Shown here: in pieces, positions 6,776 to 24,997 of the stretch
How the letters are laid out: every line of letters starts with the position of its first letter
Numbering within the stretch: the stretch's first letter is position 1
From: Candidatus Thorarchaeota archaeon
GTDB taxonomy: Archaea; Asgardarchaeota; Thorarchaeia; Thorarchaeales; Thorarchaeaceae
Direction of reading: 5' to 3'
DNA length: 64,000 nucleotides
Assembly (NCBI GenBank): GCA_963726195.1
Contig: CAVSBO010000003.1
Coordinates: 387,011 to 451,010 of the forward strand
Program-made: the position numbers and the translations under genes
The notes under the pieces: model-generated
What the model saw: only the letters and a program-made list of their open reading frames with translations
Told to the model about the DNA's origin: nothing
Database searches by the model: none

Positions 6776-6796
6776 ATTAACTTGAACATCTGCACT

Positions 6797-6885
6797 TAGG
6801 GTCTGTCAATGTGGGAGTGTAGTTTTGATAAAGATAAGAAATTAGAGAAGTATAGGGTCTGTCAATAGGGGACTCAGGGGGGAGG
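6797..6885 (+). repeat. two direct copies of motif R1 (TAGGGTCTGTCAAT, the second extended by a G-string)
   Basis: TAGGGTCTGTCAAT occurs at 6797-6810 and 6853-6866. The second copy continues AGGGGACTCAGGGGGGAGG. A third copy is at 7661-7688. The 5' half resembles the S-gene terminator hairpin arm GGGGTCTGAAAT(A/G)GAC. Confidence 0.6.
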
Positions 6886-6903
6886 AATATTCTGTCCTCA
6901 ATG

Positions 6904-6945
6904 ACTGTCCACAGGCCATGCCGACAATTGACAAGGAAGAAAAAG
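6904..6945 (+). repeat. motif R3 copy (ACTGTCCAC..GGCCATGCCGAC..TTGACAAGG)
   Basis: GGCCATGCCGAC at 6914-6925 recurs as GGCCATGCCAAC at 8605-8616. Both copies are followed by TGAC..AGGAAGAAAAAG. Weaker relatives are at about 8079-8100, about 8271-8300, and in the S1-S2 spacer (AGACATGGCCAGCACAATCTC, 12493-12513). Confidence 0.5.
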
Positions 6946-7452
6946 TGATAAGATAGAAAAAACTGGAGAGAACTGAAATGAGAAGAAGCACGTCAAGATC
7001 ATGATTATAATTGTGTGTTTGATGATAAAAAGTAAGATGTAAGAAGGGAAATAGAAGTAAAAGAAAAATAAAAAAAGGAAGGAAAAAAAAAAAAAAAGAG
7101 AAAATAAAGTAAGATAGAATGGAAAGAGAGAAGAGAAAAAAATAGAGAAAAATGTAATAGAAGGAGGAGTTAAAGAGAAAAAAGAATATGAGAGAGAGAT
7201 TAAAGGATGAGATAAAGATGAATATAAATAAGAAGAAGAGAAAGATAATAAAAAAAAAATAAAAAGAAGAGATGAATGATATGAAAAGATAAAGGAGAAA
7301 AAAAAGAAGAAATGGATAGGAGAATGAAAAAAAATAGATAAAGAAATGAATAAAAAAAAAAAAAAAAAAAAAAGGAAGTATATGAATAGGGGATAAGAAT
7401 TAGATTTATAAAAGTAAATAGTATATGAAAAGGAGATATTTGGAATATACTA

Positions 7453-7640
7453 CTATGCTCGCATAGGCATAACCTGATTGATATGACTAGTTACTTGGAC
7501 ACGTCGTTCTAATAGTGAGATATACCTACGGGGAAACAACTGATAGCGTATATTTGGTCTTAACACTAAATAAGATCAGGCAGAACTAGCATAGGAATGT
7601 TACGTGTGACAACCAATCTCGGTTAGGAGTTATAAGAGAG
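7453..7640 (+). repeat. R2 copy 1: homolog of the surface-gene 5' region, with no gene behind it
   Basis: Shares ATTGATATG (7477-7485), GACACGTCG and TACGGGGAAACAAC with the S2 upstream region (ATTGATATG 12594-12602, GACGAGTC, TACGCGGGAAACGA 12643-12656). Ends in GTGACAACCAATCTCGGTTAGGAG, which resembles the S2/S4 Shine-Dalgarno region (GTTCAGGAGAG / GTTTAGGAGAG). It is followed by an R1 copy instead of a coding sequence. Confidence 0.6.
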
Positions 7641-7660
7641 ATTAATAAGTTATATAAATA

Positions 7661-7688
7661 GAGGTCTGTCAATGGACTCAGAGGGGGA
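7661..7688 (+). repeat. R1 copy 3 (GAGGTCTGTCAATGGACTCAGAGGGGGA)
   Basis: Direct match to the 6853-6885 motif. Compare the S3 terminator GGGGTCTGAAATGGACCCTGCCTCCCC: the first 17 nt are closely similar, then the terminator's pyrimidine tail is replaced here by a purine G-string. Confidence 0.6.
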
Positions 7689-8600
7689 AAGAACAACGAA
7701 CTATCAGAGACGAAGAAAGAAAAAAGAAAAGGAATGCTGATGAGATCCTAATAAAAGAAGAAAAAGAGAAAGAAGAAGGGAAGAAAAGGAGAGGAAAAGA
7801 GAAAAATAGGAAAGAGAAAGAATAAAAAAAAAAAAGAAGAAAAAAGGGAAAAAGAGATGAGAAAGAGAAAGAGAAGGAGATGGGAAAGAAAGGAAAAGGA
7901 TATGAAAAAAAAAAGAGGTATATAGATATACTCAGAGGACTATACGCAGTGAAAAATGGGTCAAAGAAAAAGAGAAAGAAAGAAAAAAAAAAGAAAAGTA
8001 AAAAGAAGAGATATAAAAGTAAGAGAAACTAGAAATAAAAAATGAGAACACGCCGTTACTGGTGTGACTGAGCTATACCAAGGCCAAGCCAACGACAGGC
8101 TTAGCGATGAGAACACGACAAAAAAAAAAAAAAAGAAAGAAGAAGGAAAAGGAAGAAAAGGAAAGAGAAAGAAAGAAAATATAGAAAAAGGAGAAATGTA
8201 AAAGAAGAGAAAAATAAGAAAAGAAGAAAAAGAGAGATAATATAAATAAGAGTATGCCGAAGCTCTAGAATGAAACTGTCCACGCTGCTTGACAGATAAG
8301 AAAAGATGACAAATCCTATCTTCAAATAGGGATTTGAGAAGAATTGGTATTGGTAGAATATGTACCTGTGACTGAATGGCCACGGACTGATGAAATATAC
8401 CTTTGTGACAGGACTTTATGTGCTGACAGAGAAAATGGGCGCTCAATCACTGTCGGAGATGTGTCTGCAGAGATAGATAGAAAGAAAGAAGGAGTGAAAG
8501 AAAAAAAGAAGAAAAAGAGAAAGAAAGTAGGTGAAAAGAAAAGGAGAGGGAAAAGAAAAAGAAAAGAAGGGAGAAAAAAAGACAATGACAAAGATGTCAA

Positions 8601-8637
8601 ACACGGCCATGCCAACTGACGAGAGAGGAAGAAAAAG
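8601..8637 (+). repeat. motif R3 copy
   Basis: ACACGGCCATGCCAACTGACGAGAGAGGAAGAAAAAG matches 6911-6945. Confidence 0.5.
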
Positions 8638-8666
8638 CTCGGACCGTGAGAAGAGACCATGAATCT

Positions 8667-8923
8667 CTATGCTCTAGGCATAACCTTGATATACTGTGTC
8701 CTTTGACACGTCGTTCTAATTGTGGATTTCCCACGAAACAAACGAGTTAGCTTGATTCTTGCCCGAACTAGGCAAAATAAAATGAGAGAAAAGAAAAAAA
8801 AAAAGAAAAGAGAGGAGAACTAGCATTGTTCCGTGGTGACACAACCAATCTCGAGAGAGGAGACTTAGCGAGAGATGGTCTTGCTGAACATAGCATTGTT
8901 CCGTGGTGACACAACCAATCTCG
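8667..8923 (+). repeat. R2 copy 2: surface-gene 5'-region homolog with an internally duplicated 3' end
   Basis: TATGCTCTAGGCATAACCTTGATATACTGTG..GACACGTCGTTCTAAT..GATTTCCCACGAAACAAACGA is collinear with 7453-7560 and with the S2 upstream region. The unit AGCATTGTTCCGTGGTGACACAACCAATCTCGA occurs twice, ending at about 8853 and at 8923. Confidence 0.65.
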
Positions 8924-8965
<42 letters not shown>

Positions 8966-9065
8966 GTTGTTCTAACTGGGATTGACAGAAACAAATAGTC
9001 TAAGAGGAGAGAAAAAAAAAGTCAAGAGAAAGAATAGAAAAGTGAAAGGGTGACACAACGGAGAG

Positions 9066-9202
<137 letters not shown>

Positions 9203-9712
9203 ATAGAAAGAGAAAGACCAACTACCACAACAGGCACCACAACTACCTCCACAAGCAGCACAACAACGAGCACTCAGCCACCGAAGGCAAAACCCTCTAC
9301 TGAAGGAGCAGTCGGCGCCAATGAGGTCAAGCCTCTAGTGAATGCTGAAAGAAGAAGTCGTGAGGATACAGAATCGGAAGAGAGGGAACAGAAACGGGCA
9401 CAGACACAACAGACCAATGAACAAACAGACAACAGGACACAAAAGAAAGAAGGAAAGAAGAAGAAGAAAACACACAAAACAAAAAGGAAAACGGACAAAA
9501 GACATAGAACGATGAGCATGACAAACAAGGATAGCAAAATTGAAACATGGAATGAGAAACGAATCACAAAAAAAAAGAGAAGAAAAGGAAAAAAAGAAAA
9601 AGAGAGAAAAAAAAGAGAAAAAAAAAAAAGAAAGAAAAAGAAAAGGAGAAAAGAAAAGAAAAAAAAAAAAAAAAGAAAAATGAAAGAAAAAACAAATCCG
9701 GGAGAGACACAT

Positions 9713-12328
9713 ATGAAAACAAAGCACGTCATGATTGTTCTATTTGCACTCATACTCTTTCAGGCAACTTTGTTCACAGGGACACAGCTCACTGCCAGCA
9801 ACAGCCGACAGTCAGCTGGCAACACAGCAATCCAGCCTCCGGCTCAGACCTCAGGAGCAGGTGGCGAGAATCCCCTCATTACTAATGTGGTACAAGGTGG
9901 TGGCTTCGAGACAGCAGATTCCGCTGGCTCCCCCAGCTACTGGAGTTCCTGGGGTACCCAATACGCTAAAACCAACACTACGTACACAGCGATCAAATAC
10001 GGAGGCAGTTATTCTGGTGAAGCGGAGTGCAGGGGGACTTCCCAGTGGTGGGGGTCAGGCGAATTGATTTACAACGGTTACTCATCAATGCCCCATCTTG
10101 TCGCGGGACTCAACTTTACTTCCTATACCTACTTGGTATCAAATCCAGATCTGGCCAATGGCGGGAGAATCGACATTGTGGTCGAGACATACAATCCAAG
10201 CCATGCATTAATCTACTACCTTTCCTATTCGTCTTCATGGAAACCCACGAATGACTCATTCACTGCATACTTCTTGTCGAACTGGTCGATGGGCTCATGG
10301 CAAAGGTTCTCTCGGAATGTGACAGCCGATTACATGACTCGTTTCGGAACACCTCCTGCGAACTGCTACGTGACCTATACGGCATGGCAGGTCTATTCAC
10401 CCGCAAACCCCAAGGGTCTAACGGAGGTCCTTGCAGATGATCATTCTCTGACGAACAGAACTGCATACATCTACACTCCTAACGGTAACTTCGAGTCCGG
10501 AGACGGCAATCATTGGGCTATTGATGATACGTCTCCATGTAGTGTACTGCTCACCACGGACCACACGGAAGGCTCATTTGCAGCCAATATGAGTGCCAAA
10601 AGCGTCATGGCAGGCGGCTATGGTTATGCGGGCATGTCGCAGAGTTACTCCTATCCTCGTGGACTGTACGTCTCGCAGCCCGGGACCGGAGTATTGAGCT
10701 TTGATTGGAAGTACACCGAGACGTACAACGGCGGCTGGGGTCAGGATGCATACATCTACATCTATGCTCAGAACAATACGAGGTCTTTACAAGTGTACTT
10801 GATGATTGGTACAAGCTTGGATTACTTCTCGTACTCAAACTCGTCCAGCCTAATGTACATCAAAGCTTCAGGGTTCGGAAACAACGGGACTTGGCAGCAC
10901 GAAGCGATAGATCTCCATGCCCTCTTCCAAGAGTACAACGTCAGTAGCCTCGTCATAACGGATTACGAATTCGAAGTGGACATTTCAGCCAATGCGAACT
11001 CATCGTCCAACTTGTTGCTGGACAAATTCCGACTCCTGAACTATCCCACACTTGATCCAGGGTTCGAACAGTTCAGGACCTGGTCACCAAGTGACCCAGT
11101 CCCCACCTGGTGGCAGACCAACGCAGGTTATCCCTACATAAACCGGACATCGTTTGCTCACAGCGGCAACTGGGCTGCTAACATTACATCTTACGGAGGA
11201 GTGCCCGCCGGGCTCGACAGAGGACAGTACGTGAGTATCGATGGATCAATCTACACGGACTTCTGGTATCAAGTGAAGAGCACCACTTCGGCTAGCGAGA
11301 GCGTTGCCTATATCGAACTCTATTTCGATTCCGGGGTATGGATATACTACTTGCTGGCAGCAACCAGCATTTATCCCGCGACAAACAGCAGCGACTCTGT
11401 TTACTACTATGTTGATGGCTTCAACCAGACTGGCACATGGAGGAACCTTGTTCGAAACGTGAAGGCAGACTTGGAAGCGGCGTTTGCACCGACTTCATGG
11501 GTTCTCGATACCGTTGAGATGGTCTGCTATGGTGCTGTGGGAGGAACAGTATCTGTCATATTTGATGACATGAACTTCGTCGTAGATACTCATCCTCCAA
11601 CGATAAACCAAGTGCTGAGGAACCCCATAGCCCCAATGTACCATGATGCGGTGCAGGTCACAATCAACGCTACTGATGTCCTGTCGGGCGTGGCTCATGT
11701 CTATGTCTACTACCGAATAGGGACTGGCTCGTGGAGCATATTGACTGCTACCATGTCAGGAGGACTCTACCATGCATCCATTCCTACTCAGTCGTACGGA
11801 GCAAGTGTCTCCTACTATGTGAATGCCACGGACAACCTTGGCCATGTCGCCGTCGGTAGCACCTTCTCGTACGTGCTTGGCGATGACATTGCGCCTGTGA
11901 TTGACTCAATCAGCCCTATCAACAATACAGTTGTCAGCGGTTGGAAATTCGTAAACGTCACGACGCACGACCCAGGTGTTGGCTCTAGCGGCGTCTCACA
12001 CGTGGAACTCTGGTCCGGAAGTAGCCTTCTCGCGAACACCAGCTCTGCACCTTACCAGCTTCACTGGAACACTCAACTCCTGACCAACGGGACCCATACG
12101 CTCACAGTGAGAGTAATGGACAGGGCCGGGAATATGGCATCCGTCATACTTCATTATGATGTCGAGAACGCCCAGACTACCACAACTACTTCGACGACTA
12201 GTACCACGACTACTACCACGAGCGGTACTCAGACTACCACAGGTCCCCCCTTCCTACTCATTGGCGTAGTCGGCATAGTTGCAGTCATCATTGTGCTGGC
12301 TTTGGTGCTGAAGAGTAGAGCTAAGTAG
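9713..12328 (+). CDS. cell-surface glycoprotein paralog S1 (intact)
   Basis: ATG 9713 sits behind GGAGAG and aligns with the paralog starts (MK.KHVMIVLF..LFQ..LFTGT). After the signal peptide come three jelly-roll modules, each opening with a G-F-E motif (QGGGFETADS, PNGNFESGDGNHW, LDPGFEQFRTW), like CBM4/9-type domains. These are followed by Ig-like domains (DDIAPVIDSISP..GVSHVELW..APYQLHWNT..NGTHTLTVRVMDRAGN). The C-terminus has a Thr-rich linker, GPPF, a hydrophobic helix and a KSRAK tail. There are many N-x-S/T sequons. Confidence 0.85.
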   Translation: MKTKHVMIVLFALILFQATLFTGTQLTASNSRQSAGNTAIQPPAQTSGAGGENPLITNVVQGGGFETADSAGSPSYWSSWGTQYAKTNTTYTAIKYGGSYSGEAECRGTSQWWGSGELIYNGYSSMPHLVAGLNFTSYTYLVSNPDLANGGRIDIVVETYNPSHALIYYLSYSSSWKPTNDSFTAYFLSNWSMGSWQRFSRNVTADYMTRFGTPPANCYVTYTAWQVYSPANPKGLTEVLADDHSLTNRTAYIYTPNGNFESGDGNHWAIDDTSPCSVLLTTDHTEGSFAANMSAKSVMAGGYGYAGMSQSYSYPRGLYVSQPGTGVLSFDWKYTETYNGGWGQDAYIYIYAQNNTRSLQVYLMIGTSLDYFSYSNSSSLMYIKASGFGNNGTWQHEAIDLHALFQEYNVSSLVITDYEFEVDISANANSSSNLLLDKFRLLNYPTLDPGFEQFRTWSPSDPVPTWWQTNAGYPYINRTSFAHSGNWAANITSYGGVPAGLDRGQYVSIDGSIYTDFWYQVKSTTSASESVAYIELYFDSGVWIYYLLAATSIYPATNSSDSVYYYVDGFNQTGTWRNLVRNVKADLEAAFAPTSWVLDTVEMVCYGAVGGTVSVIFDDMNFVVDTHPPTINQVLRNPIAPMYHDAVQVTINATDVLSGVAHVYVYYRIGTGSWSILTATMSGGLYHASIPTQSYGASVSYYVNATDNLGHVAVGSTFSYVLGDDIAPVIDSISPINNTVVSGWKFVNVTTHDPGVGSSGVSHVELWSGSSLLANTSSAPYQLHWNTQLLTNGTHTLTVRVMDRAGNMASVILHYDVENAQTTTTTSTTSTTTTTTSGTQTTTGPPFLLIGVVGIVAVIIVLALVLKSRAK

Positions 12329-12344
12329 TGGGAAAACCGAAAGC

Positions 12345-12381
12345 GCGGGGTCTGAAATAGACCCTGCCTCCCATCCTTTTG
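12345..12381 (+). terminator. hairpin plus pyrimidine/T-run terminator after S1
   Basis: GCGGGGTC-TGAAATA-GACCCTGC forms an 8-bp stem with one G-U pair, followed by CTCCCATCCTTTT. It lies 17 nt after the S1 stop. Near-identical elements follow S3 and S4. Confidence 0.6.
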
Positions 12382-12584
12382 ACATCTCCATCTGCTGTCG
12401 AGCCGCACCCAGACCCGTCGAATTCATGATGACGATATCACTCTACCCCGATGTGGATACGAGTGCACTTGTTGGAAAATGATGTGCATGTCAGACATGG
12501 CCAGCACAATCTCACACATGGATTTTCGAGAATGAATCCCCTACGCAGTTGGCCACTAGCAACAATCGAGATAACATGTCATTT

Positions 12585-12720
12585 CTACGCAACATTGATA
12601 TGTAGGACTGTCGACGAGTCAAGTTGTAAGATTTCCACAATGTACGCGGGAAACGATTTGCCCAAACTTGACATTAGCCCATAGCCGCGGGACCGGTCTT
12701 CAAGTTCAGGAGAGATGCAT
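12585..12720 (+). promoter_or_regulatory. conserved surface-gene 5' region (candidate promoter/5' UTR) of S2
   Basis: Contains ATTGATATG (12594-12602), a possible TATA-like box about 125 nt upstream of the start, and GTTCAGGAGAGATGCAT before the ATG. Both elements are shared with S4 and with the R2 repeats. No TSS data are available. Confidence 0.35.
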
Positions 12721-15700
12721 ATGAAAGCAAAGCACGTCATGATTGTTCTGTTTATGTTTATTCTGTTTCAGGGATTTCTGTTCACGGGGACACCGTCGAC
12801 TGCCGGCACCAAAGGACAGGCAGCGGGTGGCATAGCAGTTCAGGCTCCGGTTCAGATCGCAGGAGCAGGTGGCGAGAACCCACTCGTGACCAATGTGCTG
12901 GAGGGAGGGGGCTTCGAGCAGGTCCAGAGCATGGGGTACCCTTCAGAGTGGAGCTCCTCTGGTTCTTGTGACCTCAGCCAGAATGCTTCCTATACGGGTC
13001 TCACATACGGCGGTTCGTACTCTGGTCAGATTGTTGCAAGGGGAACGCCACAGTGGGGGGGTAGCTCAGGGATGTTCTATCGTACCTATCAGCTTTCTTC
13101 AAGGCCGTATTTGACTCAGGGAATCAGCATTGACCTCTACACGTACATTGTTTCCAACCCTGATTTGGCAAGAAATGGTCAGTACTATATCCGCGCTCAG
13201 GTTTGGACCCCCAGTGGCTATCGCAACGTAGTCTACTATATGTCCTTTAGAGTTGGATATTCGCTAGGCAACAGCTCGCAAACTGTCAACTTCGCACTGA
13301 ATACCACAATCGGCTATTGGAGCCATCTGCAGAGAAACATGACCGCAGACTTTGAGTCAAGATTTGGCGCGGTTCAGAGCGGCTCCTACATCTACGAAAT
13401 TGATTGGCTAACCTATTCGCCTTATGGCTCAACAGGCCCCACGGAGGTTGTAGTAGATGAAGTCAATCTCTACAATCGAACTGCCCATGAGTTACTCCTG
13501 AACGGTGACTTCGAAGACGGTGACGGATCCCACTGGGACACAAGCTATGGCTCCCCCGGGTATGTCTATACCACTTCGGACTGTACAGAGGGCTCGCGTG
13601 CCGCCAACCTCACGGTCAGGGCTGCACAAGCAAACGCATGGGGATACGCATACATGGCGCATTGGTACAGTTATCCTCAAGGCCTGTACGCGGCAGAGCC
13701 CGGTAGCGGGGTTGTATCATTTGACTGGAACTACCGGGATACGAACAACGGCGGCTCTGGACAAGGTGCATTTCTCGAAATCGATGTGGGAAACCAGACA
13801 TACTCCTGCACCGTCTTGGTTTTCTTGGGTCAGGACCTAGACTACTTCCCCAGTGAGAACTATACCAGCACCGTATACGTGAGAGCTTCTGGGTTCGGCA
13901 GCAGAGGAACTTGGGAACATCAGTCAACCGATCTCGGTGCATTGTTACGACAGAGGAACATCACTGATGTGACAATAGAGGACTTCATGTTCTATATCCA
14001 GACCTCAAGTCGGGCGAACTCATCAGCCACATTGCTGCTCGACAGTTTTGAATTCCGGACGTATCCTACAATTGACCCTGGATTTGAACAAGACTGGTAT
14101 TGGTCAACGAGTAGTCCCGTCACAGGCTGGTGGACGAGCGGTGCTGGGTACCCGTACGTTAATCGAACATCATTCGCCCACACTGGCAATTGGGCGGCGA
14201 ACGTCACGGCGTATGGGGGCGCAGCCGGAGGACTCTATAGGACCCAATACGTCGAAGTCGATGCATCGATTTTCACAGACTTTTGGTACCAGTTAATGGA
14301 TACGACCTCGGCCAGTGGCAGCATTGCCTACATCATGCTCTATTTCTGTTCAGGGCAAACGATTTGCTACCTGCTTGCAGCAAGTAGCGATTACTCCCCG
14401 ACGAACAGCAGTGACACCGTCTTCTACTATGTCGATGGGTTCAACCAGACTGGTACATGGAGGAACCTAGTTCGCAACGTGAAGACAGACTTGAAACTGC
14501 ATTTGCTCCGACCGCATGGATTCTCGATCAAGTCAGTATCTACTGCTATGGAAGCGGAGGAGACAGACTATCTGTAATCTTTGACGACATGAATTTCGTT
14601 TCTGACACGCATGCGCCCAACTTCACATTCGTGGGCCTTGACGGACACGAACCCACGTACTACAATGAGGCCACCGTAAGGATTAACCTGACCGAATTGA
14701 GCCCCGTCACCACTGCAGTTTACTACAACAACGGATTGGGCTGGGTGAGAACGCTGGCTGCAAATATGGGCAGGGACTTCCTTGCCTACATTCCTAAAGG
14801 CCCCTACGGAACAGTGGTTCACTGGTATGCCAATGCAACCGACAACTGGGTCACAGTGCAATCGATAACAATCACGGCAGCTACTTTCATACATAATCGG
14901 AGACGACATCCCCCCTGTGATTGACTCGATTCGACCAAAGAACAGCACCGTTGTCACGGGTTTGAACATAGTGAAGGTAAACACAAGTGATCCCGGTGTT
15001 GGTTCAAGCGGCATCTCGCACGTTGAACTCTGGCTTGGGTCTAGCCTTCTTGCAAACGACAGCTCTGCACCGTACCAACTTCTATGGAATACTCGGCTAG
15101 TGGGTAATGGGACTCACACATTGACAATAAAGACAGTGGACAATGCGGGTGAGTCATCTACTGGACATCTGTATGTTGACGTTGAGAATGACGTGGCAGG
15201 GCCATCGATTTCGGGGGCGGTGGTCAACCCATCCCATCCAGAGGTTCATCAGTCGGTGACAGTCTCTGTAGGAGTAGCTGATGTTACGGGCGTTGCGAGT
15301 GTCACACTCTACTACAAGGTGGGAGCAGGAGACTGGCAGACTCTGCCAATGAGCGCATCGGGTGCACTATACAGTGCAATAATCCCGGGCGCTGACTACG
15401 GGAAATCCGTGTCATTCTACATTGTCGCAATCGATGTGTTCGGTCAGCCATCCACTTATGGGTCCGTGGTCAGCCCTCAGACTTACGGTGCTGTTGACAC
15501 GATTGATCCGACGATTGGAGTGACAGGTCCTGTGGCAGGAAGCAAGATAATAGGGCTTGTTCGCTTCAATGTGTCGGCTACGGATAGCGGAAGTGGAATT
15601 GCCAACGTGACTTTCCTAGTCGATGGCTCCGAAGTTGATATGAGCACGGCCACACCGTGGGTATACGAATGGAATACTGGCTCTGTCGCGAATGGCTTGC

Positions 15701-15909
15701 ACACGATACGATTCACGGCAGGAGACAAAGCTGGGAACGTCGTGTCAGTGTCAATTCAGTATGACATCGAGAACCCTCAAGGCCTTGATGCTGTAGGCTA
15801 CGCGCTGCAGAGTTTCATGTCCCAGTTCGGGATTGTCGTGGGAGTTGCAGCTGTTCTGGGACTGGTACTTGTGTTCAAACTGATCATGGCTAGGAGGCAG
15901 ACCAAGTAG
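12721..15909 (+). pseudogene. cell-surface glycoprotein paralog S2, frame disrupted (2 lesions)
   Basis: ORFs 12715-14577, 14457-14924 and 14917-15909 are collinear with S1. Frame switches are at about 14495 (one G missing relative to S1, GACTTGAAACTG versus GACTTGGAAGCG) and about 14888. Extra Ig-like repeats are present. The C-terminus is a TM helix plus ARRQTK. ATG 12721 aligns with the S1 start. Confidence 0.8.
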
Positions 15910-15933
15910 GATTACTCGTGGAGGAAAAAAAGA

Positions 15934-18900
15934 ATGAGAAAGCACGCTATTGTCTTATTGATGGCTCTGGTTATCGTGATACAAGGAGTTCTCGTCACCG
16001 GAATTGTCCAGCCGAAAGCCGGTTCCCTGACGCAGAACGTGCCTCAACACGAGAACGTCTACCAATCAGCAGGCTTGCCTGGTGAGAAGCCTTTGCTGGC
16101 CAACGTACTTCCCAATCCAGGATTCGAGCAAGTTGACTCCTACGGAGGACCGCTCCAGTGGAATTACTATGGCTCGGCCTATACTGGATCAAACGCTTCC
16201 TATACGGGACTAACCTACGGCGGATCCTACTCCGGTCTGTTGGAGGCAATGGGAACACAGCAATGGGGAACGGATGCGTACATGTACCGTTACTTGACAA
16301 GTGCGCCCTTTGCTATGCTTTCGCAGCGTATTATTCTCAACCTGTTCTGGGACGTCCGTCAGAATCCGGATATTGCAAGGTGGGCTTATGCATACATACG
16401 ACTCGAAATGTATAACGGCTCGACTGGTTCTACATCTACTATGCGCTCTCTTTCGGCAATAACGTCGGTTCCAACAGCACGCACTCCTCATGGATACGCC
16501 TTAACAACACCCTTGATGCTTGGCATCAATTGAACAGGAATGTCACCTCCGACTTTGAGAAATGCTTCCTTATGCCAGTACCAACGAACATGATGCTCTA
16601 TGACATGTTCTTCTATGCCGTATCACCCCAACAAGCCACTGGAAAAATAACCATGGTAATAGACGAAATCAGTCTCAGGAATTCGACACTATACGAGTAC
16701 TTGCTCGATAGCAATGGCAACTTCGAGATGGGAAATGGTGCCAACTGGAATACGAAATCGTCGTATGACCCGGCCCGAGTTGCCTTGACCGCCGAGCATA
16801 CCGAAGGGAATCATGCGGTGAACATGTCCTGTTCTGCAAGTGGCAGCGGGTTGAATCGCTATGCTTCTCTCTACCAGTATTCCTACCGTGGGCTCTTCAC
16901 CGAACCGGATGGCTTGGTCGTTCAGTTTGACTACATGTACAAAGATGCTCAAGGAGGGGGAACGGGTCAGTATGCCTACGTGTACGTTTCCTACTCCAAC
17001 AGGAGTATCAGTGGGAACGTCTTTTGGTACTTGGGCAGGGGCTCAGACCTCTTTGATGACGTCAATTCGACGTACTATTGCTACACGAGGGCTGATGGTT
17101 TCGGCTCACGAGGCGTTTGGCATCATGTCACAGCAGACGTCGGAAGCCTTCTCAAACAGAATCATATAACGAACGTTGCCGTTCAATATCTCACGTTCTA
17201 CGTCAACGCGGGTTCAAGTGCCAATTCCTCGGTCCAACTCTTGGTCGACAGGGTCTCGGTCGTGACGGACCCTCTCGGGGATCCGGGCTTCGAACAGGAC
17301 ACGAATCTGTACTTCGGTCCCGTACCATCATGGGATATCTGGAGTGGAGGGGCACCAACGTCAGTCAGACTGCGAGCGCTCGGACCGGGAAATGGGACGC
17401 GAACTTGACTGCCTATGGCGGAACTTCAGCAGCCATCTACCGATCGATGTGGCTGGAAATGGATTCATCCGTGTTCACAGATTTCTACTGGAAACTCGAT
17501 TCTTCGCCATATGCCTCGTCTACCTATGTCGTGGTGAGGCTCAGTTTCCAGGGAGGCTATGAGGTCAACTATGTGCTGGCGAACGTGGGCGGCTCCTACT
17601 CTAATAGCAGTTGGCAGGCAACATACTATGCCTCAGGGCTGAATCAGACAGGAGTCTGGAACAGACTATACAGAAATCTCACTTTGGATTTCACGTCGGT
17701 CTTTGGCACGCCTGTCTCGAGCTGGAATCTGACACAGTGTGTTCTCGACGCATATGGCGGCAGTTCTGGCGGAAAGATTCAGTCCTGTTCGACGACATGA
17801 ACTTCCTTGACAAACAGGGTCCCACTATACGTCAAGTCTTGAGAACCCAATAGTTCCGATGTATCATGACGTAGTCAAGGTGACAGTCAATGCGACCGAC
17901 AACTTGGCAGGCGTAGGCCAAGTCTGGCTGTATTATCGTCAAGGCGCTGGCCCGTACACCGTCGCTAGTGCTGTGAAGTCCGGGGGACTCTACCAGGCGT
18001 TCATACCTCCTGAGTCATACGGTATTCCCATCTATTACTACGCCAATGCAACTGACAAATGCGGCTCAATCACTACGACTAGCAGCTTCTCGTATGTGCC
18101 CGGCGACGATGTCGCCCCTCATGTCGAAATCCTGTCACCCGATCAGAGCGATGTGCTGACAGGGACTGTGGTCATTAATGCAAGCGCCTATGATGCTGGC
18201 AGCGGGGTGGCTTACGTGCTTTTCCGGGTTGACGGAAACCTCATCGCCAACATTTCAGCAGCACCGTACGAGTATGCTTGGAACAGCCGTCTGGTCACGA
18301 ACAGCATGCACACTATCCAACTAACAGCCTACGATGTCGCTGGCCTGCCTTCGTCCACCTCGGTGGGCATCTCAACCGCGAACGACTTCTCGCCCCCAAT
18401 GCTATCAGGAGTACATCTCAACCCGGCAGTTCCTCAGTACGGCCAAAACGTTGTGGTCTACGTTGCAGTCACTGACCAATCCGGTGTGCATAGCGTGGTC
18501 CTTCATCACAGGATAGATTCTGGATCCTGGACAGCTACTGCAATGAGCGCATCAGGCGCCCTCTACGAGGCTGTCCTAGGCTCGGACGTCTACGGGACCA
18601 GGGTGGAATACTACGTAGTCGCGATGGACGTCTACAACGCCTCTGTCTCGATCGGTTCTCAGAGTTCGCCAATGTTCTACATCGTTGGCGACACCACGAA
18701 CCCAACAATCAGTGTCAGCGGACCGTCAACAGGCACCCCGCTTGGGGGCACAGTGTGGTTCAGCGTGTCCGCAAATGACGGAATCGGCGGAGCAAGCGGC
18801 TTGGGCAGATTCCTGTTCTTTGTAGACGGCACACTGGCTGGGAATAGCTCGACTGTTCCAAGCAACTTCACTTGGGCTACGACATCCGTGTCAAACGGAT

Positions 18901-19121
18901 ACCATACCCTCACGTTCCGTGTCGTTGATCGCGCAGGCAATCCCGCATCTGTCAATCTAACGTACTATGTGGCCAACGGGGTAATTGACTTCGGACCCGT
19001 CATGTCCTCTTACGGATTCTTCATCGGAGCAGGCGGCACTATCGCAGTCATAATAGTGGTCAGCATTCTATTGAAGAGAAGAGCGCGAAGTAAGACAAAC
19101 GATCCAGAAAGCGGGGTCTGA
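15934..19121 (+). pseudogene. cell-surface glycoprotein paralog S3, frame disrupted (4 lesions)
   Basis: ORFs 15934-16533, 16530-17408, 17117-17800, 17611-17853 and 17859-19121 are collinear with S1/S2. Frame switches are at about 16420, 17350, 17778 and 17844 (AGAACCCA where AGAAACCCA is needed). The gene starts 24 nt after the S2 stop, behind GGAGG. The C-terminus is a TM helix plus KRRARSK. Confidence 0.8.
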
Positions 19122-19147
19122 AATGGACCCTGCCTCCCCTCTTTTTG
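19111..19147 (+). terminator. hairpin plus T-run terminator after S3
   Basis: GCGGGGTC-TGAAATG-GACCCTGC followed by CTCCCCTCTTTTT. The S3 stop codon (GGGGTCTGA) lies inside the 5' arm. Confidence 0.6.
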
Positions 19148-19195
19148 ACATTTTCATCCATCAATTCAACAGTCTTCCACCGACTTTCATACGCT

Positions 19196-19329
19196 TGACG
19201 CAATCTTGATATGTCATGTTCGATTAGCGTGATTCTGTTACCATATTGGCATTGCAGTATGAGAGTAGCCTTGCCAATACCAAGGTTTTCCTTGGTGGAG
19301 TAGTCTCTAAGTTTAGGAGAGAATGCTAC
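19196..19329 (+). promoter_or_regulatory. conserved surface-gene 5' region of S4
   Basis: CTTGATATG at 19205-19213 and GTTTAGGAGAGAATGCTAC before GTG 19330, homologous to the S2 5' region and to the R2 repeats. Confidence 0.35.
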
Positions 19330-21901
19330 GTGAAAGCAAAGCACGTCATCATTGTTCTGTTCATATTCATGCTCTTTCAGGGAACTCTGTTTACGGGAAC
19401 ACCGTTGACTGCCACCAGCGGGCGACAGCCAGCCGGCAACACAGCAATTCAATCTCCGGTTCACACCGCCGGGGCGGGTGGAGAGAATCCCCTAATCACC
19501 AACGTAGTATCCGGAGGAGGCTTCGAGGAAGTGATATATAATGGCGCTCCTTACGACTGGAGCTGGTATTCCACCGGATATGGAAACCAGAGTGCCGCCT
19601 ACACGGCACGTAGGCACAGCGGAAACTACGCGGGCGAACTTGAAGCCGAAGGAACCGCCCAGCAGTGGGGCTATTCCTATATGTACTACTACCCGACGTA
19701 TGGTCCGAAAGTATATCTGACTCAGGGAATCATTTTCGACTTCTACAACTACTTAGTAGTCCAACCCCAATCGTATTGCTGGTGGCAACGCTTACGTAAG
19801 GGTCTATTTGTACGACGCAGGTTAAACAGACTACTTCGTCTACTACTATCTGTCTTACCCTAACTCAGGCCTACCTTCCAACAGCTCACAATACACCTAT
19901 TTCGGACTAAACGAGACCTTAGGGATGTGGTATGGGATTCATAGGAATATCACGGCTGATTTCCGGACTAGCTTTGGAACTCCCAGTCCGACACGCTACG
20001 TATACGAAATCATGTGGGAAGTGGACTCGCCTCGTTCCCCGACGGGGCTAACGAAGACCGTTCTTGACGACGTAAGTATCACCAACCGTACAGCCCATGA
20101 GTTCGCTGATAACGGTGACTTTGAAAGCGGGAACGGCGTTCACTGGGGTTCAAGCGGACTAACGAGCCCAGGCGTACATTTACACAACGTCCGACTGCAC
20201 AGAAGGCACACGGGCCGCGAATGTCAGCTGCAAGGCCATTGCACCGTATAGCAATGGTTACGCATACTTAGGCGAAGTTCTTTGACTATCCTCAGGGGCT
20301 GTATGCAGCGCAGCCTGCCAATGGCATTGTGGAATTTGACTGGAAATACTATGATACCCACAATGGTGGCTCCCAACAATTCGCATACCTGTACATCTAC
20401 GCCACGAACGAGTCGTTCTACTGCTTCGTGGACGTATATCTAGGCCGGGACCTCAACAGCAATTCCCAGACGAACTATACAAACGACATATCCATGAATG
20501 CAACGGGGTTTGGCAATAGAGGAAGTTGGCAGCACGAAGTGCTTGACCTTGGGCTGCTGTTCCAGCAGCTGAATATCCGTAATGTTGCAATAGAGCAGAT
20601 ACTCTTCGGGGTCGACCTCGGAGAGCAGGATAATTCCTCGGTTACTCTTCTGGTTGACAATTTTCAGTTTCGAACTTACCCCACGATCGACCCTGGATTC
20701 GAACAGGATTGGTATTGGTCGGCCTCAAGTCCAGTAACTGGTTGGTGGACGGACGGCTGGTCGTACCCGTACGTCAATCGTACATCAGATCATCACAGCG
20801 GGAAGTGGGCGGCCAATATCACCGTCTACAATACTTACTATGCAGGACTCTACCGGACTCAGTTTGTGAAGATTGATCAGTCCATTTTCACAGACTTCTG
20901 GTTCAAGGCTGAATGGCATCACATCCGTCGGCGAAAACGCAGCCTTCATCAAGCTCATGTTCGATGGCGGATTCGCTATCACTTACGTGGTTGCCGCAAG
21001 CAGCGCATACTCTCCGGGGAACTCGAGTAGTGATACCTACTACTTTGTGAATGGTTTCAACCAGACCGGAACCTGGAGGAACATCGTACGGAACGTTCAG
21101 GCAGACCTTGAAGCGCGGTTCAGTCATCATTCTTGGAATCTTACCGAGGTGGAGGTCTACGCTGCGACTGGGGGAGGAGGAAGTGTATCCGTTATCTTCG
21201 ATGACATGAATTTCGTCCGCGATACGCATGCTCCAACGGTAACTCAAGTGCAAAGGAATCCCACGAGCCCTATGTACTATTCCACGGTCCAGGTTTCAGC
21301 CAGTGCTTCTGACAATCTGGCTGGCGTTGAGAGTGTCTATGTCTATTATCATCAAGGCACCGGCCCGTGGAGCAAACTGAACGCCACCTTGTCAGGAGGG
21401 CTCTACCGTGCATCAATTCCTACTGAGTCCTATGGCGTGAGCGTCTACTACTACGTGAATGCTACAGACAATTGTGGCAACATCGCCGTCAGCAGCACCG
21501 ACTCATATGTACCCGGCGACGACATTGCTCCTGTGGTTGACTCAATCAGTGCGAACAACAACACTGTTGTCACGGGCTGGAACTACGTGAATGTCAGCGC
21601 GCATGACCCCGGCGTTGGCTCAAGTGGTGTTTCACGTGTCGAGCTATGGTTCGGGTCAACCCTTCTCGCCAATGGCAGCTCTGGACCCTACCAGCTTCAC
21701 TGGAATAGTGGCCTATTGGCCAACGGGAATCACACCCTCACGTTGAGGGTAGTGGACAACGCTGGGAATACAGCCTCCACCTCACTACGGTACGACATCG
21801 AGAATCCCGTAAGTATTCTCACCCTAGTACTTGGGGCAGGCATTGTGATCGCGGTTGTCGTTGCGCTGGCCTTCGTGTGCATGAAAGGACGTCACAAGTA
21901 G
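19330..21901 (+). pseudogene. cell-surface glycoprotein paralog S4, frame disrupted (5 lesions)
   Basis: GTG 19330 aligns with the S1/S2 ATG (VKAKHVIIVLF). ORFs 19246-19863, 19925-20251, 20329-21030 and 20873-21901 are collinear with S1. Frame switches are at about 19759, 20174, 20277 and 20910. There is also an in-frame TAA at 19823-19825. The C-terminus is a TM helix plus KGRHK. Confidence 0.8.
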
Positions 21902-21917
21902 CTCGATAATCGAAAAT

Positions 21918-21955
21918 GCGGGGTCTGAAATAGACCCTGCTTCTCTCCTTTTTTC
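21918..21955 (+). terminator. hairpin plus T-run terminator after S4
   Basis: GCGGGGTC-TGAAATA-GACCCTGC followed by TTCTCTCCTTTTTT, 17 nt after the S4 stop. Confidence 0.6.
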
Positions 21956-22130: not shown

Positions 22131-22994
22131 ATGGTATCTGTAAGCCCATTCGTTCGTGATGGCAAGTATCTTGTCAGCAAGGTGCATGCAACCTCTGATC
22201 TCCATGCTTCAGTAAAGAGAGCAGTGGACCTCATTGGAGGCCTCGACAAGGCCATCGCTCCCGGCGACACGGTTACGATCAAGCCGAACCTAAACACTGG
22301 AGATCCCTTTCCCGGCTAGCAGTGACGCCAGACTTCATAGAAGCCTTAGGCCGCAACATTCTGGATGCCGGGGCGGAGAAGCTACAGATTATTGACAGAC
22401 TCAATGGTAACGGCTTCGACAAGGGAGATTGCTAGTAAGACCGGGCTGAGCGAGGTTGCGCAAGGACTTGGGGCCGACCTCATTTTTCTCGAGGAGCACC
22501 CCTACACCAAGGTGAAGATACCGAATGGCAAGTTTCTGAAGGAGACTCGCATCGGCAAGCCATTGCTCGACATCGGTAAGTTGGTACTTGCTCCTTGTCT
22601 GAAGACACACAAATATGCGCGATTTACCGCGAGCATGAAACTGTTCGTGGGCTGGATGAACCGACAGGACAGGATTAAGATGCACATGGGCCACCTAGAG
22701 GAGAAGGTGGTCGAGCTGGCATCATTCTTCCATCCGGTCCTCATTGTCATGGATGCAAGAAAGGTGTTCGTGACGGCAGGCCCGGCCTCGGGCCGCGTCG
22801 AGGAACCAGGAATCATTTTGGCAAGCGGAGACATGGTGTCAATCGACGTCGAGGGCATACGCATTCTTCAAAGCTTCAAGGCAGACAACAATCTAAACAC
22901 GAACGTCTGGGACCTGCCTCAGATAGGGCATGCGAGGGAATTGGGAGTCGGCGCACAAAGCGACGAGGACATAGATGTCATCGAGGAAGACTAG
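22131..22994 (+). CDS. DUF362-domain protein, reading frame interrupted twice
   Basis: ORF 22131-22319 (..GDTVTIKPNLNTGDPFPG*) continues in a second frame (AVTPDFIEALGRNILDAGAEKLQIIDR). It then continues in ORF 22365-22994 (..LAPCLKTHKYARFTASMK..IVMDARKVFVTAGP..). Frame switches are at about 22305-22320 and 22390-22405. The family call rests on the IKPN and CLKTH-type motifs. Confidence 0.6.
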
Positions 22995-24997
22995 TCGGTC
23001 TTGCTCGCTTTCGGGAACCATATTCTGAACTCTGCCCCCATCTCTTCGCGACCCGGCACCCTATCTAGAATCTCTATCTTGCCGCCGTATTTCTCGACGA
23101 TTTGGTAGGACTGATGTATGCCCATCCCTCCAAACCGTCTGGCAACGTCGAAGAGAATTGCCTTAGAAGAATCCGGAATACCGGGCCCATTGTCTGCAAT
23201 GGAAACTACATAGAACTGACCCTCGTCTTTCAAGCCAACCCAAACATGCTTGTTTGAACTTGGATTGTGCTCGACCGCATTTACCAGCAGGTTGGAAAGC
23301 AGCAGTTCAAGGTAGTCGTCAGCATAAACCCAAGCGCCCTCCACATCGTATGCGGCTTCAAAGACTGCATCTGACGCACGGCCGGATATGGCTTGGACAC
23401 ATCCTTTGAGAGCGGCATTCAACGGACGCTCTGACAGAGGGATACTCATTAGCTGTTCGGTGGCTCTGACTTCCTCAATCAGTCTGGAGCATCTCTGAAC
23501 AGCGTTCTCTATGACCTCTAGAAGCGATGACTTTCGCTTGTCATCTTGTGCGATACGCAACAGCGCTGCACTGTTAACTACAACTTGCAGCTGATTCTTC
23601 AAGTCATGCCCCATCAAATCAAGATAGAACGAAGCCCTATCCTTCGTGACGTCTGTTGCTCTCTCTACTTTCAGTCGTTCCGTTACGTCAACAATCATTG
23701 TCTGGATTGCTTGGTTGCCCTCATACTCAATCGGACTTGAGAATGCTTCGACCCAGCAGATCTCTCCATCTTTGCGAACAAGACGATACTGATACCTAGG
23801 AGGCACTGCCGTTCGCGCGAAGAGGTTTTGAAGATGCGTCATCACGACGGGCTGGTCTTCAGGATGAATCAGATCCCATATCTCGATCATGTTCATTTTC
23901 ATTAATTCGTCAACGGAAAACCCCACCATTTGGGCGAACGCCTTGTTGACATACACGAAACCCTCGTCACCTATTATCATCATTCCTTGGCTTGACTGTT
24001 CAGCTAGCGCACGGTATTTTGCCTCTGAAGCAAGCAGGTCGGCGTCTTTCTCCACTCGCTCGGTTATGTCAATCAAGAGAATCTGTGATGCAGAAGTTCC
24101 TTCGAAGTCAGTTGATGTGACAAAGGCCTCTACCCAACGGATGGACCCGCCACGAGCAACCAAACGATAGACATAGTGAGAAGGAACGCCCTTGCCCGCC
24201 TTGCGGTTTGCTGCGTATTGCCGCAGAGTCACTTGATCGTCAGGGTGTACCAGAGACCATGCCTTGCTCGAGGACATCCCAACTATCTCGCTTGGTGAGT
24301 AACCAACCATGTTTGCGAAGGCCCCGTTCACATAGACATACTTGTCATTCTGTACGATGACTAGGCCTTGAGTCAACTCTTCTGCCAAAGCCCGGTACTT
24401 CGCTTCTGACTTCTTCAAGGCATCTTCCATCTTTCGATGCTCAGATATGTCGAACACAACCGCAAACGAGCCTTGTCGTGCACCGCTAGCATCGATCAAA
24501 GGAGCACCCGACACGAGAGTTGTAGCCTTGTTTCCTGACTTCGTGGTCCATTCGAGCTCATACTGTGACGAAAGACCCCTAGCCCTCTTGGTGAGCTGTT
24601 TGTCCAGAATCTCTCTGTTGCTCTTGTCCAAGAACTCGTGAATGTCTTGGCTCAAGATTTCTTCAGCTTTATATCCCAGCATTTCGCAGAGGCGTTTGTT
24701 CACGTAAACGAACTTGGCGTCAAGATTCACTACGGTGAATCCTTCGTTCATGCTGTCAACGAGAGCGTGATATCGCAGAATCTCTTCCTGCGCATCTATG
24801 CCACGGCTCTTTGGGGTGTTACTTCGACTCTTCATCAGGCTACAAACCTCGGCGCGCACACCGAATCTTTGGTTAACTGCTCTGCCAAGTCGGTTCATGG
24901 TGCGTACGTACTTGTCTGTTGTGTTGATGTCTCCAGCAACCGCAAAGTGCCCCTTGCCCCTGTTTCCACTGGCACTTGATACACCCATATCCAGCAT
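22991..24997 (-). CDS. multi-PAS sensor histidine kinase
   Basis: There are three to four PAS-like repeats (recurring FVYVNK.F..M.GY..EE and HP.D..). H-box is MGHDLKNQL. The ATPase motifs are NAVEHN, DNGPGIP and GMGIHQSY. The start is uncertain: an alternative ATG at 24835 gives MKSRSNT... The stop overlaps the DUF362 stop (CTAG). Confidence 0.8.
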   Translation of the reverse strand: MLDMGVSSASGNRGKGHFAVAGDINTTDKYVRTMNRLGRAVNQRFGVRAEVCSLMKSRSNTPKSRGIDAQEEILRYHALVDSMNEGFTVVNLDAKFVYVNKRLCEMLGYKAEEILSQDIHEFLDKSNREILDKQLTKRARGLSSQYELEWTTKSGNKATTLVSGAPLIDASGARQGSFAVVFDISEHRKMEDALKKSEAKYRALAEELTQGLVIVQNDKYVYVNGAFANMVGYSPSEIVGMSSSKAWSLVHPDDQVTLRQYAANRKAGKGVPSHYVYRLVARGGSIRWVEAFVTSTDFEGTSASQILLIDITERVEKDADLLASEAKYRALAEQSSQGMMIIGDEGFVYVNKAFAQMVGFSVDELMKMNMIEIWDLIHPEDQPVVMTHLQNLFARTAVPPRYQYRLVRKDGEICWVEAFSSPIEYEGNQAIQTMIVDVTERLKVERATDVTKDRASFYLDLMGHDLKNQLQVVVNSAALLRIAQDDKRKSSLLEVIENAVQRCSRLIEEVRATEQLMSIPLSERPLNAALKGCVQAISGRASDAVFEAAYDVEGAWVYADDYLELLLSNLLVNAVEHNPSSNKHVWVGLKDEGQFYVVSIADNGPGIPDSSKAILFDVARRFGGMGIHQSYQIVEKYGGKIEILDRVPGREEMGAEFRIWFPKASKTD

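What the first reader, a model, noticed from the sequence alone, without database searches (positions are those of the whole stretch)
9713..21955. Four tandem paralogs of a large sequon-rich surface protein: the first is intact and the other three carry 11 frame lesions
- S1-S4 share a near-identical signal peptide.
- They share three G-F-E jelly-roll modules, Ig-like domains and a C-terminal anchor.
- S1 (872 aa from ATG 9713) is uninterrupted.
- S2 has 2 frame switches, at about 14495 and 14888.
- S3 has 4, at about 16420, 17350, 17778 and 17844.
- S4 has 4, at about 19759, 20174, 20277 and 20910, plus an in-frame TAA at 19823-19825. Its start codon is GTG where the others have ATG.
- This is roughly one lesion per 0.8 kb across S2-S4. 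By my count the rest of the window has roughly one per 5 kb.
- Either these are genuinely decaying or silent copies, or the paralogous repeats were the hardest part of the assembly to polish.
Basis: seen in the sequence. Interest (0 to 1): 0.8.

Follow-up and report, generated by a model that had tools for sequence, protein, structure and literature searches.

The report
Assembly errors break Asgard surface-protein paralogs
The tandem surface-protein genes are real and belong to an Asgard (Thorarchaeota-like) archaeon, but the frame breaks in three of them are almost certainly single-base errors of a noisy long-read assembly, not gene decay.

Summary
S1 is open, and S2-S4 are diverged paralogs (38-54% aa) broken at the listed sites.

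The decay reading does not hold.
- Two other public contigs of the same locus (ENA ERZ25039515 contig_64252 and contig_64251) are near-identical over S1 to mid-S3.
- Every one of the 13 lesions is absent from at least one of them.
- Each contig has its own private indels, which break different genes.
- Differences among the three contigs pile up at AGCT: 19 of 52 events against 1 expected, p=1.5e-19. GATC sites also recur. This is the pattern of methylation-motif consensus errors in nanopore assemblies.
- Single-copy genes elsewhere in the window are broken too (HtrA-like, DUF362, Cu-ATPase, SDR, AFOR, LVIVD).

After repair, S2-S4 are open at 1065, 1054 and 855 aa. They keep 70-71 of 72 family-invariant residues and show dN/dS of 0.2-0.4. 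Relatives from other assemblies carry intact tandem arrays.

The A-rich tract upstream of S1 (6776-9712) is a garbled fifth paralog.

The family is an uncharacterised Asgard surface glycoprotein: three CBM-like jelly rolls, Ig-like domains and a transmembrane anchor.

The parts
6776..9712 (+). S0: a garbled fifth paralog. A 53%, C 10%, with poly-A runs up to about 160 nt. Start near ATG 6979; Thr-rich linker at about 9218-9280.
   Evidence: Colinear at 67-81% identity with L003 1077-4381. That stretch has normal base composition and encodes a family member (MQKKHVIIMIIL..., GGFEQ, DPGFEQ, IFDDMN). In the aligned blocks A and G are kept, but about 40% of C and T read as A. The stretch also holds islands about 99% identical to the S0-less spacer of L001.
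9713..12328 (+). S1: intact 871-aa surface glycoprotein. Signal peptide, three CBM-like jelly rolls, two Ig-like domains, Thr-rich linker, transmembrane anchor.
   Evidence: Open frame. 100% identical to P0001 on L001. Pfam Big_7 and DUF7743. AF2 models.
12721..15909 (+). S2: 1065 aa after repair (counted from ATG 12715). Broken in the window by 1-nt deletions at 14493, 14847 and 14886.
   Evidence: Both L001 and L003 have the missing base at all three sites. The repaired frame is open. 71 of 72 family-invariant residues are kept.
15934..19121 (+). S3: 1054 aa after repair, with the true stop at 19091-19093. Broken by 1-nt deletions at 16424, 17358, 17779, 17845 and 19083.
   Evidence: L001 has an uninterrupted 1054-aa ORF. 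L003 also has the base at four of the five sites; it shares only the 17845 deletion, which lies in a GAGAGA context. dN/dS against L001 is 0.22.
19330..21901 (+). S4: 855 aa after repair, GTG start. Broken by 1-nt insertions at 19759, 20173, 20273 and 20907, and by TAA at 19823-19825.
   Evidence: The L001 S4 ORF is open across the parts corresponding to all five sites, up to the end of that contig. At the TAA, L003 reads CAA and L001 reads TAT. dN/dS against L001 is 0.36. 70 of 72 invariant residues are kept.

Best explanation
The window comes from a 916-kb contig of a Thorarchaeota-like Asgard archaeon. The contig was built from error-prone long reads, most likely nanopore. It carries a tandem array of five paralogous genes (S0-S4) for membrane-anchored, N-glycosylated surface proteins. 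Each protein has three CBM-like jelly-roll modules, two to several Ig-like domains, and a C-terminal transmembrane helix with a basic tail.

All five genes are most likely functional in the cell. The 13 lesions in S2-S4 are residual consensus errors: single-base indels and one miscall. About half sit in or next to AGCT or GATC, as expected where methylated motifs are miscalled.

Errors are denser here because the locus is structurally and allelically polymorphic among co-occurring strains (S0 present or absent; swapped blocks in S3 and S4). The consensus was therefore built from mixed or thin read support. Upstream of S1 the same problem turned S0 into A-rich garbage.

Shown here: absence of each lesion in another contig, the motif association, broken genes elsewhere in the window, and conservation of the repaired genes. 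Inferred: the sequencing platform, methylation as the cause, and mixed haplotypes as the reason for the local excess.
For: - Independent contigs. L001 and L003 (ENA ERZ25039515 contig_64252 and contig_64251) match the window at 98.6-98.9% over 9.4 kb. Together they lack all 13 lesions.
- Private errors in every contig. L003 breaks S1 at 9787, 9935-9938 and 9951. L001 breaks the S2 N-terminus at 12820 and 13063. The window is open at all of these.
- Error-like spectrum. In 12.7-17.7 kb the window has 6 private indels against 8 private substitutions, and all the indels are 1 nt.
- Motif association. AGCT is the top 4-mer of 256, with 19 of 52 difference events against 1.0 expected (p=1.5e-19). 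A further 7 of 12 window-L001 differences outside that stretch are also at AGCT, including the HtrA frameshift at 6040. Motif-linked consensus errors are documented for nanopore assemblies (PMC6591954).
- Single-copy genes are broken elsewhere: HtrA-like near 6040, DUF362 (stops clustered near 22320-22360), hyp258 near 27040, Cu-ATPase near 31720, SDR near 37130, AFOR (stop at 56576 plus a shift near 57100), LVIVD near 61050.
- The repaired genes look functional. They are open, keep 70-71 of 72 invariant residues (S1 keeps 69), and keep the sequon density. dN/dS is 0.22 and 0.36.
- Relatives are intact. In L002 (four copies in tandem), L004, L011 and others, every homolog aligns in a single frame.
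- A 916-kb contig points to long-read assembly.
Against: - No reads are available, so no lesion was re-called directly.
- The window may come from the same read pool as L001 and L003. If not, it could be a separate strain.
- S1 has zero differences over 2.6 kb while its neighbours are riddled with them (P=0.025 at the S2-S4 rate). This is unexplained.
- The 17845 deletion is shared by the window and L003.
- The TAA at 19823 lies in a block where the haplotypes truly differ, so it cannot be settled.
- AGCT to AACT changes could in principle be real 5mC deamination, though deamination would not produce indels.
- AGCT density is not higher in S2-S4, so the motif alone does not explain the local excess.
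Confidence: 0.85

Rival explanations
1. S2-S4 are true, very recent pseudogenes in the strain represented by the window. Only S1 is made, and the other strains (L001, L003) keep intact copies.
For: The window is a distinct haplotype in places, with 44 private, transition-rich substitutions in 17693-18693. S1 is flawless while S2-S4 are not. The lesion density is about 8 times that of the rest of the window.
Against: - It needs 12 independent 1-nt indels in genes otherwise about 99.9% identical to intact copies, with almost no accompanying substitutions.
- About half the lesions sit at AGCT or GATC, where the other contigs also show private errors.
- Invariant residues and sequons are fully retained.
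- Unrelated single-copy genes in the window are broken in the same way.
Confidence: 0.07
2. Most lesions are errors, but one or two are real strain-specific knock-outs. The candidates are the TAA at 19823 in S4 and the 17845 deletion shared with L003.
For: The 17845 deletion appears in two contigs. The TAA lies in a truly divergent block where L003 has CAA, and L001 and L002 have Tyr, so a single real substitution would suffice.
Against: The 17845 site lies in a GAGAGA repeat and breaks the conserved VLR[ND]P motif. L003 is itself error-rich. The window also has a stop codon inside the single-copy AFOR gene.
Confidence: 0.12
3. The frame switches are a regulatory device that controls which paralog is expressed, either phase variation at contingency repeats or programmed ribosomal frameshifting.
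For: A tandem family of surface proteins is the classic setting for phase variation.
Against: None of the 12 indel sites is in a homopolymer or simple-sequence tract long enough to slip (contexts). Sites and directions differ between genes. No shared slippery motif is present. Other contigs have ordinary open frames.
Confidence: 0.02

Closest known systems
Methylation-motif and low-coverage consensus errors in nanopore (meta)genome assemblies (for example Dcm-site errors; Wick et al. 2019, PMC6591954)
   Same: Residual errors are 1-nt indels and miscalls that concentrate on a short palindromic motif. They fragment ORFs and differ between separately built consensus sequences of the same DNA.
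   Different: The motif here is AGCT, with GATC second, rather than CCWGG. Neither the platform nor methylation was verified. The local excess over the rest of the contig needs an extra cause, probably mixed haplotypes.
Archaeal cell-surface (S-layer-type) glycoproteins with a Ser/Thr-rich stalk and C-terminal membrane anchor (for example the Haloferax volcanii S-layer glycoprotein, a PGF-CTERM/ArtA substrate)
   Same: Sec-type signal peptide, many N-glycosylation sequons, all-beta ectodomain, Thr-rich linker (in S1 and S0), and a C-terminal hydrophobic helix followed by basic residues.
   Different: No sequence homology. No PGF-CTERM or other sorting-signal model matched. Lattice formation is unknown. 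The family appears restricted to Asgard MAGs.
Multi-module bacterial adhesins and glycan-binding surface proteins built from CBM-like jelly rolls plus Ig/FN3-like stalk domains (SraP binding region 4m00; CBM22 tandem 4xup; CBM16, CBM61, CBM4)
   Same: Module 3 (pLDDT 86) matches the beta-jelly-roll folds of CBM61, CBM16, CBM30, CBM11 and CBM4 at Foldseek E about 1e-5 to 1e-4 and TM 0.45-0.59. The Ig-like part matches Big_7/FN3-like modules by sequence.
   Different: The fold similarity is only moderate and no ligand-binding residues were tested. The jelly rolls match no Pfam CBM family and no PDB chain by sequence.

Membership tests
Decaying pseudogene copies of a paralog family | Lesions are fixed in the organism, i.e. 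reproducible in independent sequence of the same locus | tested here: not met
   All 13 lesions are absent from L001 and/or L003.
Decaying pseudogene copies of a paralog family | Relaxed constraint: loss of invariant residues, dN/dS near 1, mixed lesion types and sizes | tested here: not met
   70-71 of 72 invariant residues are kept. dN/dS is 0.22 and 0.36. Lesions are 12 indels of exactly 1 nt plus one stop.
Long-read (nanopore-type) consensus error | Errors are private to each consensus and also occur in unrelated single-copy genes | tested here: met
   The window, L001 and L003 each have private indels. HtrA-like, DUF362, Cu-ATPase, SDR, AFOR and LVIVD genes are broken in the window.
Long-read (nanopore-type) consensus error | Errors cluster at a specific short motif (methylation-type systematic error) | tested here: met
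   AGCT: 19 of 52 events against 1.0 expected, p=1.5e-19, the top 4-mer of 256. A further 7 of 12 differences elsewhere are also at AGCT.
Long-read (nanopore-type) consensus error | Raw reads or accurate reads contradict the consensus base | not testable with these tools
   No read data are available. The platform is inferred from the 916-kb contig and Flye-style contig names.
PGF-CTERM / archaeosortase-sorted surface proteins | A match to a curated C-terminal sorting-signal model (PGF-, PEF-CTERM and the like) | tested here: not met
   The NCBIfam scan of S1 at E<=1 returned only a weak OmpL47-type hit. The tail has GPPF, a transmembrane helix and KSRAK, which is a resemblance only.
Carbohydrate-binding-module (beta-jelly-roll) fold | Structural match of a confident model to solved CBMs | tested here: met
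   Module 3 model has pLDDT 86 and pTM 0.86. CBM61, CBM16, CBM30, CBM11 and CBM4 are among the top hits, at E 2e-5 to 5e-4 and TM 0.45-0.59.
Carbohydrate-binding-module (beta-jelly-roll) fold | Sequence membership in a curated CBM family, or demonstrated glycan binding | tested here: not met
   No Pfam CBM hit. No PDB sequence hit outside the Ig-like domain. Binding cannot be tested here.
Big_7 / FN3-like Ig domains | Pfam match above the gathering threshold | tested here: met
   PF17957 scores 41.9 bits against a cut-off of 24.1. DUF7743 scores 38.1 against 27.
S-layer protein | Forms a 2-D lattice and is the dominant envelope protein | not testable with these tools
   This needs imaging or proteomics.

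The most novel reading that the evidence does not exclude
Behind the errors may sit a truly hypervariable surface-protein cassette in an Asgard population. The supporting observations are these:
- Co-occurring haplotypes differ by presence or absence of a whole paralog (S0).
- Blocks are swapped between haplotypes. The S4 N-terminal module differs by 20-35% between haplotypes, and each version has its own counterpart in a related species.
- Two haplotype contigs whose flanks differ by 12-18% share an essentially identical 8-kb block from S1 to mid-S3. That would mean recent exchange of envelope genes between diverged populations, for example under virus or partner-recognition pressure.

A second prediction follows from the error pattern: this archaeon methylates AGCT and GATC.
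Probability: 0.35. Interest if true: 0.5.

Novelty: new member of a known kind. Interest (0 to 1): 0.2.

Why it matters
The main value is cautionary. In this MAG roughly one gene in five is split by consensus errors. Strain-variable loci fare worst, so counts of pseudogenes, gene decay or silent cassettes taken from such assemblies would be wrong.

Repairing the frames recovers five full-length members of an uncharacterised, Asgard-restricted family of large N-glycosylated envelope proteins. Very little is known about Asgard cell surfaces, so these are reasonable candidates for the outer protein coat or for glycan and cell-contact binding.

The AGCT and GATC error signature gives a testable prediction of the organism's DNA methylation.

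Tried and rejected
- Exact-protein look-ups for other window genes (AlkZ-like, molybdopterin oxidoreductase, Ras-like GTPase, the S2 fragment, P0158, P0282) found no contig on record. I therefore could not get an independent copy of the rest of the window, or the name of the source record.
- A close-relative scan of GTDB genomes with S1 found nothing. The profile scan found only distant (about 30% aa) homologs, in Heimdall- and Thorarchaeota MAGs.
- Paralogy as the cause of poor polishing is rejected. The copies share only 65-78% nucleotide identity.
- Higher AGCT density as the cause of the local excess is rejected. S2-S4 have 2.7 sites/kb against 4.0/kb in the rest of the window.
- Slipped-strand phase variation is rejected. 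No lesion lies in a repeat tract.
- A DGR-type adenine-mutagenesis reading of the S0 pattern (window A against any base in L003) is rejected. The stretch is 3 kb long, holds poly-A runs, compares alleles rather than a template/variable repeat pair, and no reverse transcriptase was seen among the ORFs scanned.
- Foldseek with the full-length S1 model gave only generic multi-domain beta-sandwich hits. The single-module model was more informative.
- The paper search for the source study was unproductive.
Full report
**What is in the sequence**

S1 (9713-12328) is an open 871-aa frame. tblastn with S1 finds three further copies immediately downstream, each aligned in several frames. After repair the copies are 38-54% identical to S1 and to one another at the protein level, so they are old paralogs rather than near-identical repeats.

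Upstream lies a 2.9-kb purine-rich stretch (6776-9712) with poly-A runs up to about 160 nt.

Pfam recognises only the C-terminal Ig-like part of S1: Big_7 and DUF7743.

The window also encodes a Ras/Arf-type small GTPase. The closest homolog of its PAS kinase from another organism is a Thorarchaeota MAG protein at 79% identity. Profile-based scans find the S family only in Heimdall- and Thorarchaeota-type MAGs. The source is therefore an Asgard archaeon. Its contig is 916,088 bp long and held by both NCBI and ENA.

**Independent copies of the locus**

The S1 protein occurs 100% identical on ENA ERZ25039515 contig_64252 (L001, 13.6 kb). There S3 is an uninterrupted 1054-aa ORF, S2 a 952-aa ORF, and S4 is open to the contig end.

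A sister contig, contig_64251 (L003, 16.1 kb), carries the same genes.

Both contigs span window positions from about 5200-5700 to about 21360. They look like the two arms of a haplotype bubble.

A three-way alignment over S1-S3 and over S4 gives the lesion list:

| Gene | Window lesions | State in the other contigs |
|---|---|---|
| S2 | 1-nt deletions at 14493, 14847, 14886 | Base present in L001 and L003 |
| S3 | 1-nt deletions at 16424, 17358, 17779 | Base present in L001 and L003 |
| S3 | 1-nt deletion at 17845 | Base present in L001; deletion shared with L003 |
| S3 | 1-nt deletion at 19083 (reads through the true stop at 19091-19093) | Base present in L001 and L003 |
| S4 | 1-nt insertion at 19759 | Extra base absent from L001; L003 is noisy at this site |
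| S4 | 1-nt insertions at 20173, 20273, 20907 | Extra base absent from L001 and L003 |
| S4 | TAA at 19823-19825 | L003 reads CAA, L001 reads TAT |

Every lesion is absent from at least one other contig. Repairing them gives open frames of 1065, 1054 and 855 aa.

**Why these are errors and not mutations**

1. Each contig has its own private indels, and they break different genes. L003 breaks S1 at 9787, 9935-9938 and 9951. L001 breaks the S2 N-terminus at 12820 and 13063. The window is open at all of these sites.
2. Across 12.7-17.7 kb the three contigs are otherwise near-identical. There the window has 6 private 1-nt indels against 8 private substitutions. That ratio is typical of long-read consensus noise, not of evolution in coding DNA.
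3. The differences are tied to a motif.
   - Of 52 difference events in 9693-17693, 19 lie within 1 nt of AGCT, against 1.0 expected (p=1.5e-19).
   - AGCT is the top 4-mer of all 256. The next-ranked ones overlap it or its error products.
   - Seven of 12 further window-L001 differences, in the HtrA-like gene and the 3' part of S4, are also at AGCT, and one is at GATC.
   - Lesions 14493, 14847, 16424 and 20907 are at AGCT sites, and so is the HtrA-like frameshift at 6040. Lesion 14886 lies 4 nt from one. Lesion 17779 is in GATC.
   - Motif-linked consensus errors are a documented property of nanopore assemblies of native, methylated DNA (PMC6591954).
4. Single-copy genes elsewhere in the window are broken in the same way:
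   - the HtrA-like protease, near 6040;
   - DUF362, with a cluster of stops near 22320-22360;
   - a conserved hypothetical gene (hyp258), near 27040;
   - the Cu-ATPase, near 31720;
   - an SDR, near 37130;
   - aldehyde:ferredoxin oxidoreductase (AFOR), with a stop at 56576 and a shift near 57100;
   - an LVIVD-repeat protein, near 61050.
   
5. The repaired genes show no decay.
   - They keep 70-71 of 72 residues that are invariant in eight family members from other organisms. S1 keeps 69.
   - Their sequon density equals that of S1.
   - Where the window and L001 truly differ, dN/dS in the repaired frame is 0.22 for S3 (103 substitutions) and 0.36 for S4 (195 substitutions).
6. In relatives from other assemblies, every family member aligns in one frame. 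L002 has four copies in tandem with conserved downstream synteny. L004 (a MEGAHIT-style contig), L011 and L013 each have two.

**Why the errors are denser here**

The excess is real: 1.4 lesions/kb against about 0.18/kb elsewhere, p=3e-8.

Two candidate causes fail. AGCT density is not raised. Cross-mapping between paralogs is unlikely at 65-78% nucleotide identity.

What marks the stretch is polymorphism:
- L001 and L003 differ by about 12% in the HtrA-like gene and about 18% in S4.
- The window matches L003 in 18693-19939 and matches L001 in 20236-21360. In 17693-18693 it is unique, with 44 transition-rich private substitutions.
- L003 carries a fifth paralog, S0, between the protease gene and S1. 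L001 has only 304 bp there.

The window's A-rich tract is colinear with S0 at 67-81% identity. In the aligned blocks A and G are preserved, but about 40% of C and T read as A. The tract also holds islands about 99% identical to the S0-less spacer of L001. It looks like a consensus forced through reads of two structural haplotypes.

I infer that thin or mixed read support over the whole bubble raised the residual error rate. This step is an inference. It does not explain why S1 itself is flawless (P=0.025 at the S2-S4 rate).

**What the genes encode**

The AF2 model of S1 has mean pLDDT 70, with 80-90 inside the domains. It shows, in order:
- a signal peptide;
- three beta-sandwich modules, each opening with a G-F-E motif (GGGFE, NGNFESGDG, DPGFEQ);
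- two Ig-like domains;
- a Thr-rich linker;
- a transmembrane helix with a basic tail.

S2 and S3 carry extra Ig-like domains.

The three modules are homologous to one another. Module 3 modelled alone (pLDDT 86) has CBM61, CBM16, CBM30, CBM11 and CBM4-type jelly rolls among its best matches, at moderate TM of 0.45-0.59. By sequence, only the Ig-like part matches solved structures. No C-terminal sorting-signal model matched.

A profile search of 1.84 billion cluster representatives returns many full-length members of 850-1200 aa. It also returns thousands of hits to the Ig-like domain alone.

My best functional reading is inferred, not tested. These are membrane-anchored, heavily N-glycosylated envelope proteins whose CBM-like modules bind glycans or mediate cell contact.

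**Verdict**

The biological reading, decay or silencing, is very unlikely. The assembly-error reading is right, with strain polymorphism and motif-linked miscalls as the likely causes rather than paralogy.

Interest in the finding as stated is low. The residual interest lies in an uncharacterised Asgard surface-protein family at a strain-variable locus, and in the predicted AGCT and GATC methylation.

Noticed in passing
window 6776-9712: The purine-rich, poly-A-laden tract is a garbled fifth paralog (S0). It is colinear with the normal-composition S0 gene of L003. A and G are preserved, but about 40% of C and T are replaced by A. Islands about 99% identical to the S0-less spacer of L001 are embedded in it. 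The cause of this strand-specific garbling is unknown.
   Followed up: partly
window 5200-21360; L001 and L003 whole: L001 and L003 differ by about 12% in the HtrA-like gene and about 18% in S4. Apart from errors, they are identical across about 8 kb from S1 to mid-S3. This means either recent exchange of the cassette between diverged populations, or collapse or chimerism in the assembly graph.
   Followed up: partly
window 19330-19940 against L001 11564-12200 and L002 genes 2 and 4: The S4 N-terminal module exists as two very different alleles (dS about 1.2 over the first 100 codons). The window/L003 version resembles the N-terminus of L002 gene 4. The L001 version resembles L002 gene 2. Gene order in the array is not conserved between the window and L002.
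   Followed up: partly
whole window and L001/L003: Consensus disagreements concentrate at AGCT and to a lesser extent at GATC. This predicts AluI-type and Dam-type DNA methylation in this archaeon. I did not look for a methyltransferase gene.
   Followed up: partly
window 56420-58209 (+): The aldehyde:ferredoxin oxidoreductase gene is split by an in-frame TGA at 56576-56578 and a frameshift near 57100. This shows that clusters of lesions also hit single-copy metabolic genes.
   Followed up: yes
window 59912-63131 (+): Two overlapping ORFs, both full of LVIVD repeats, with a Big_13 Ig-like domain in the second. Sequon density is high (about 2 per 100 aa) and local GC reaches 59%. This is probably one large secreted beta-propeller protein split by a frameshift near 61050.
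   Followed up: partly
window 22991-24997 (-) and 25052-25621 (+): A PAS/PAS/PAS histidine kinase and a 189-aa ORF with no Pfam hit occupy the position where the relatives L002 and L004 carry a MaoC-dehydratase gene. This is a local break in synteny just downstream of the array.
   Followed up: no
window 51449-54775 (+): A 1108-aa ORF with an N-terminal GNAT acetyltransferase domain followed by a long region with only a faint Ig-like (FixG_C) hit and 11 sequons. This is an unusual architecture, or two genes fused by an error that removed a stop codon.
   Followed up: no
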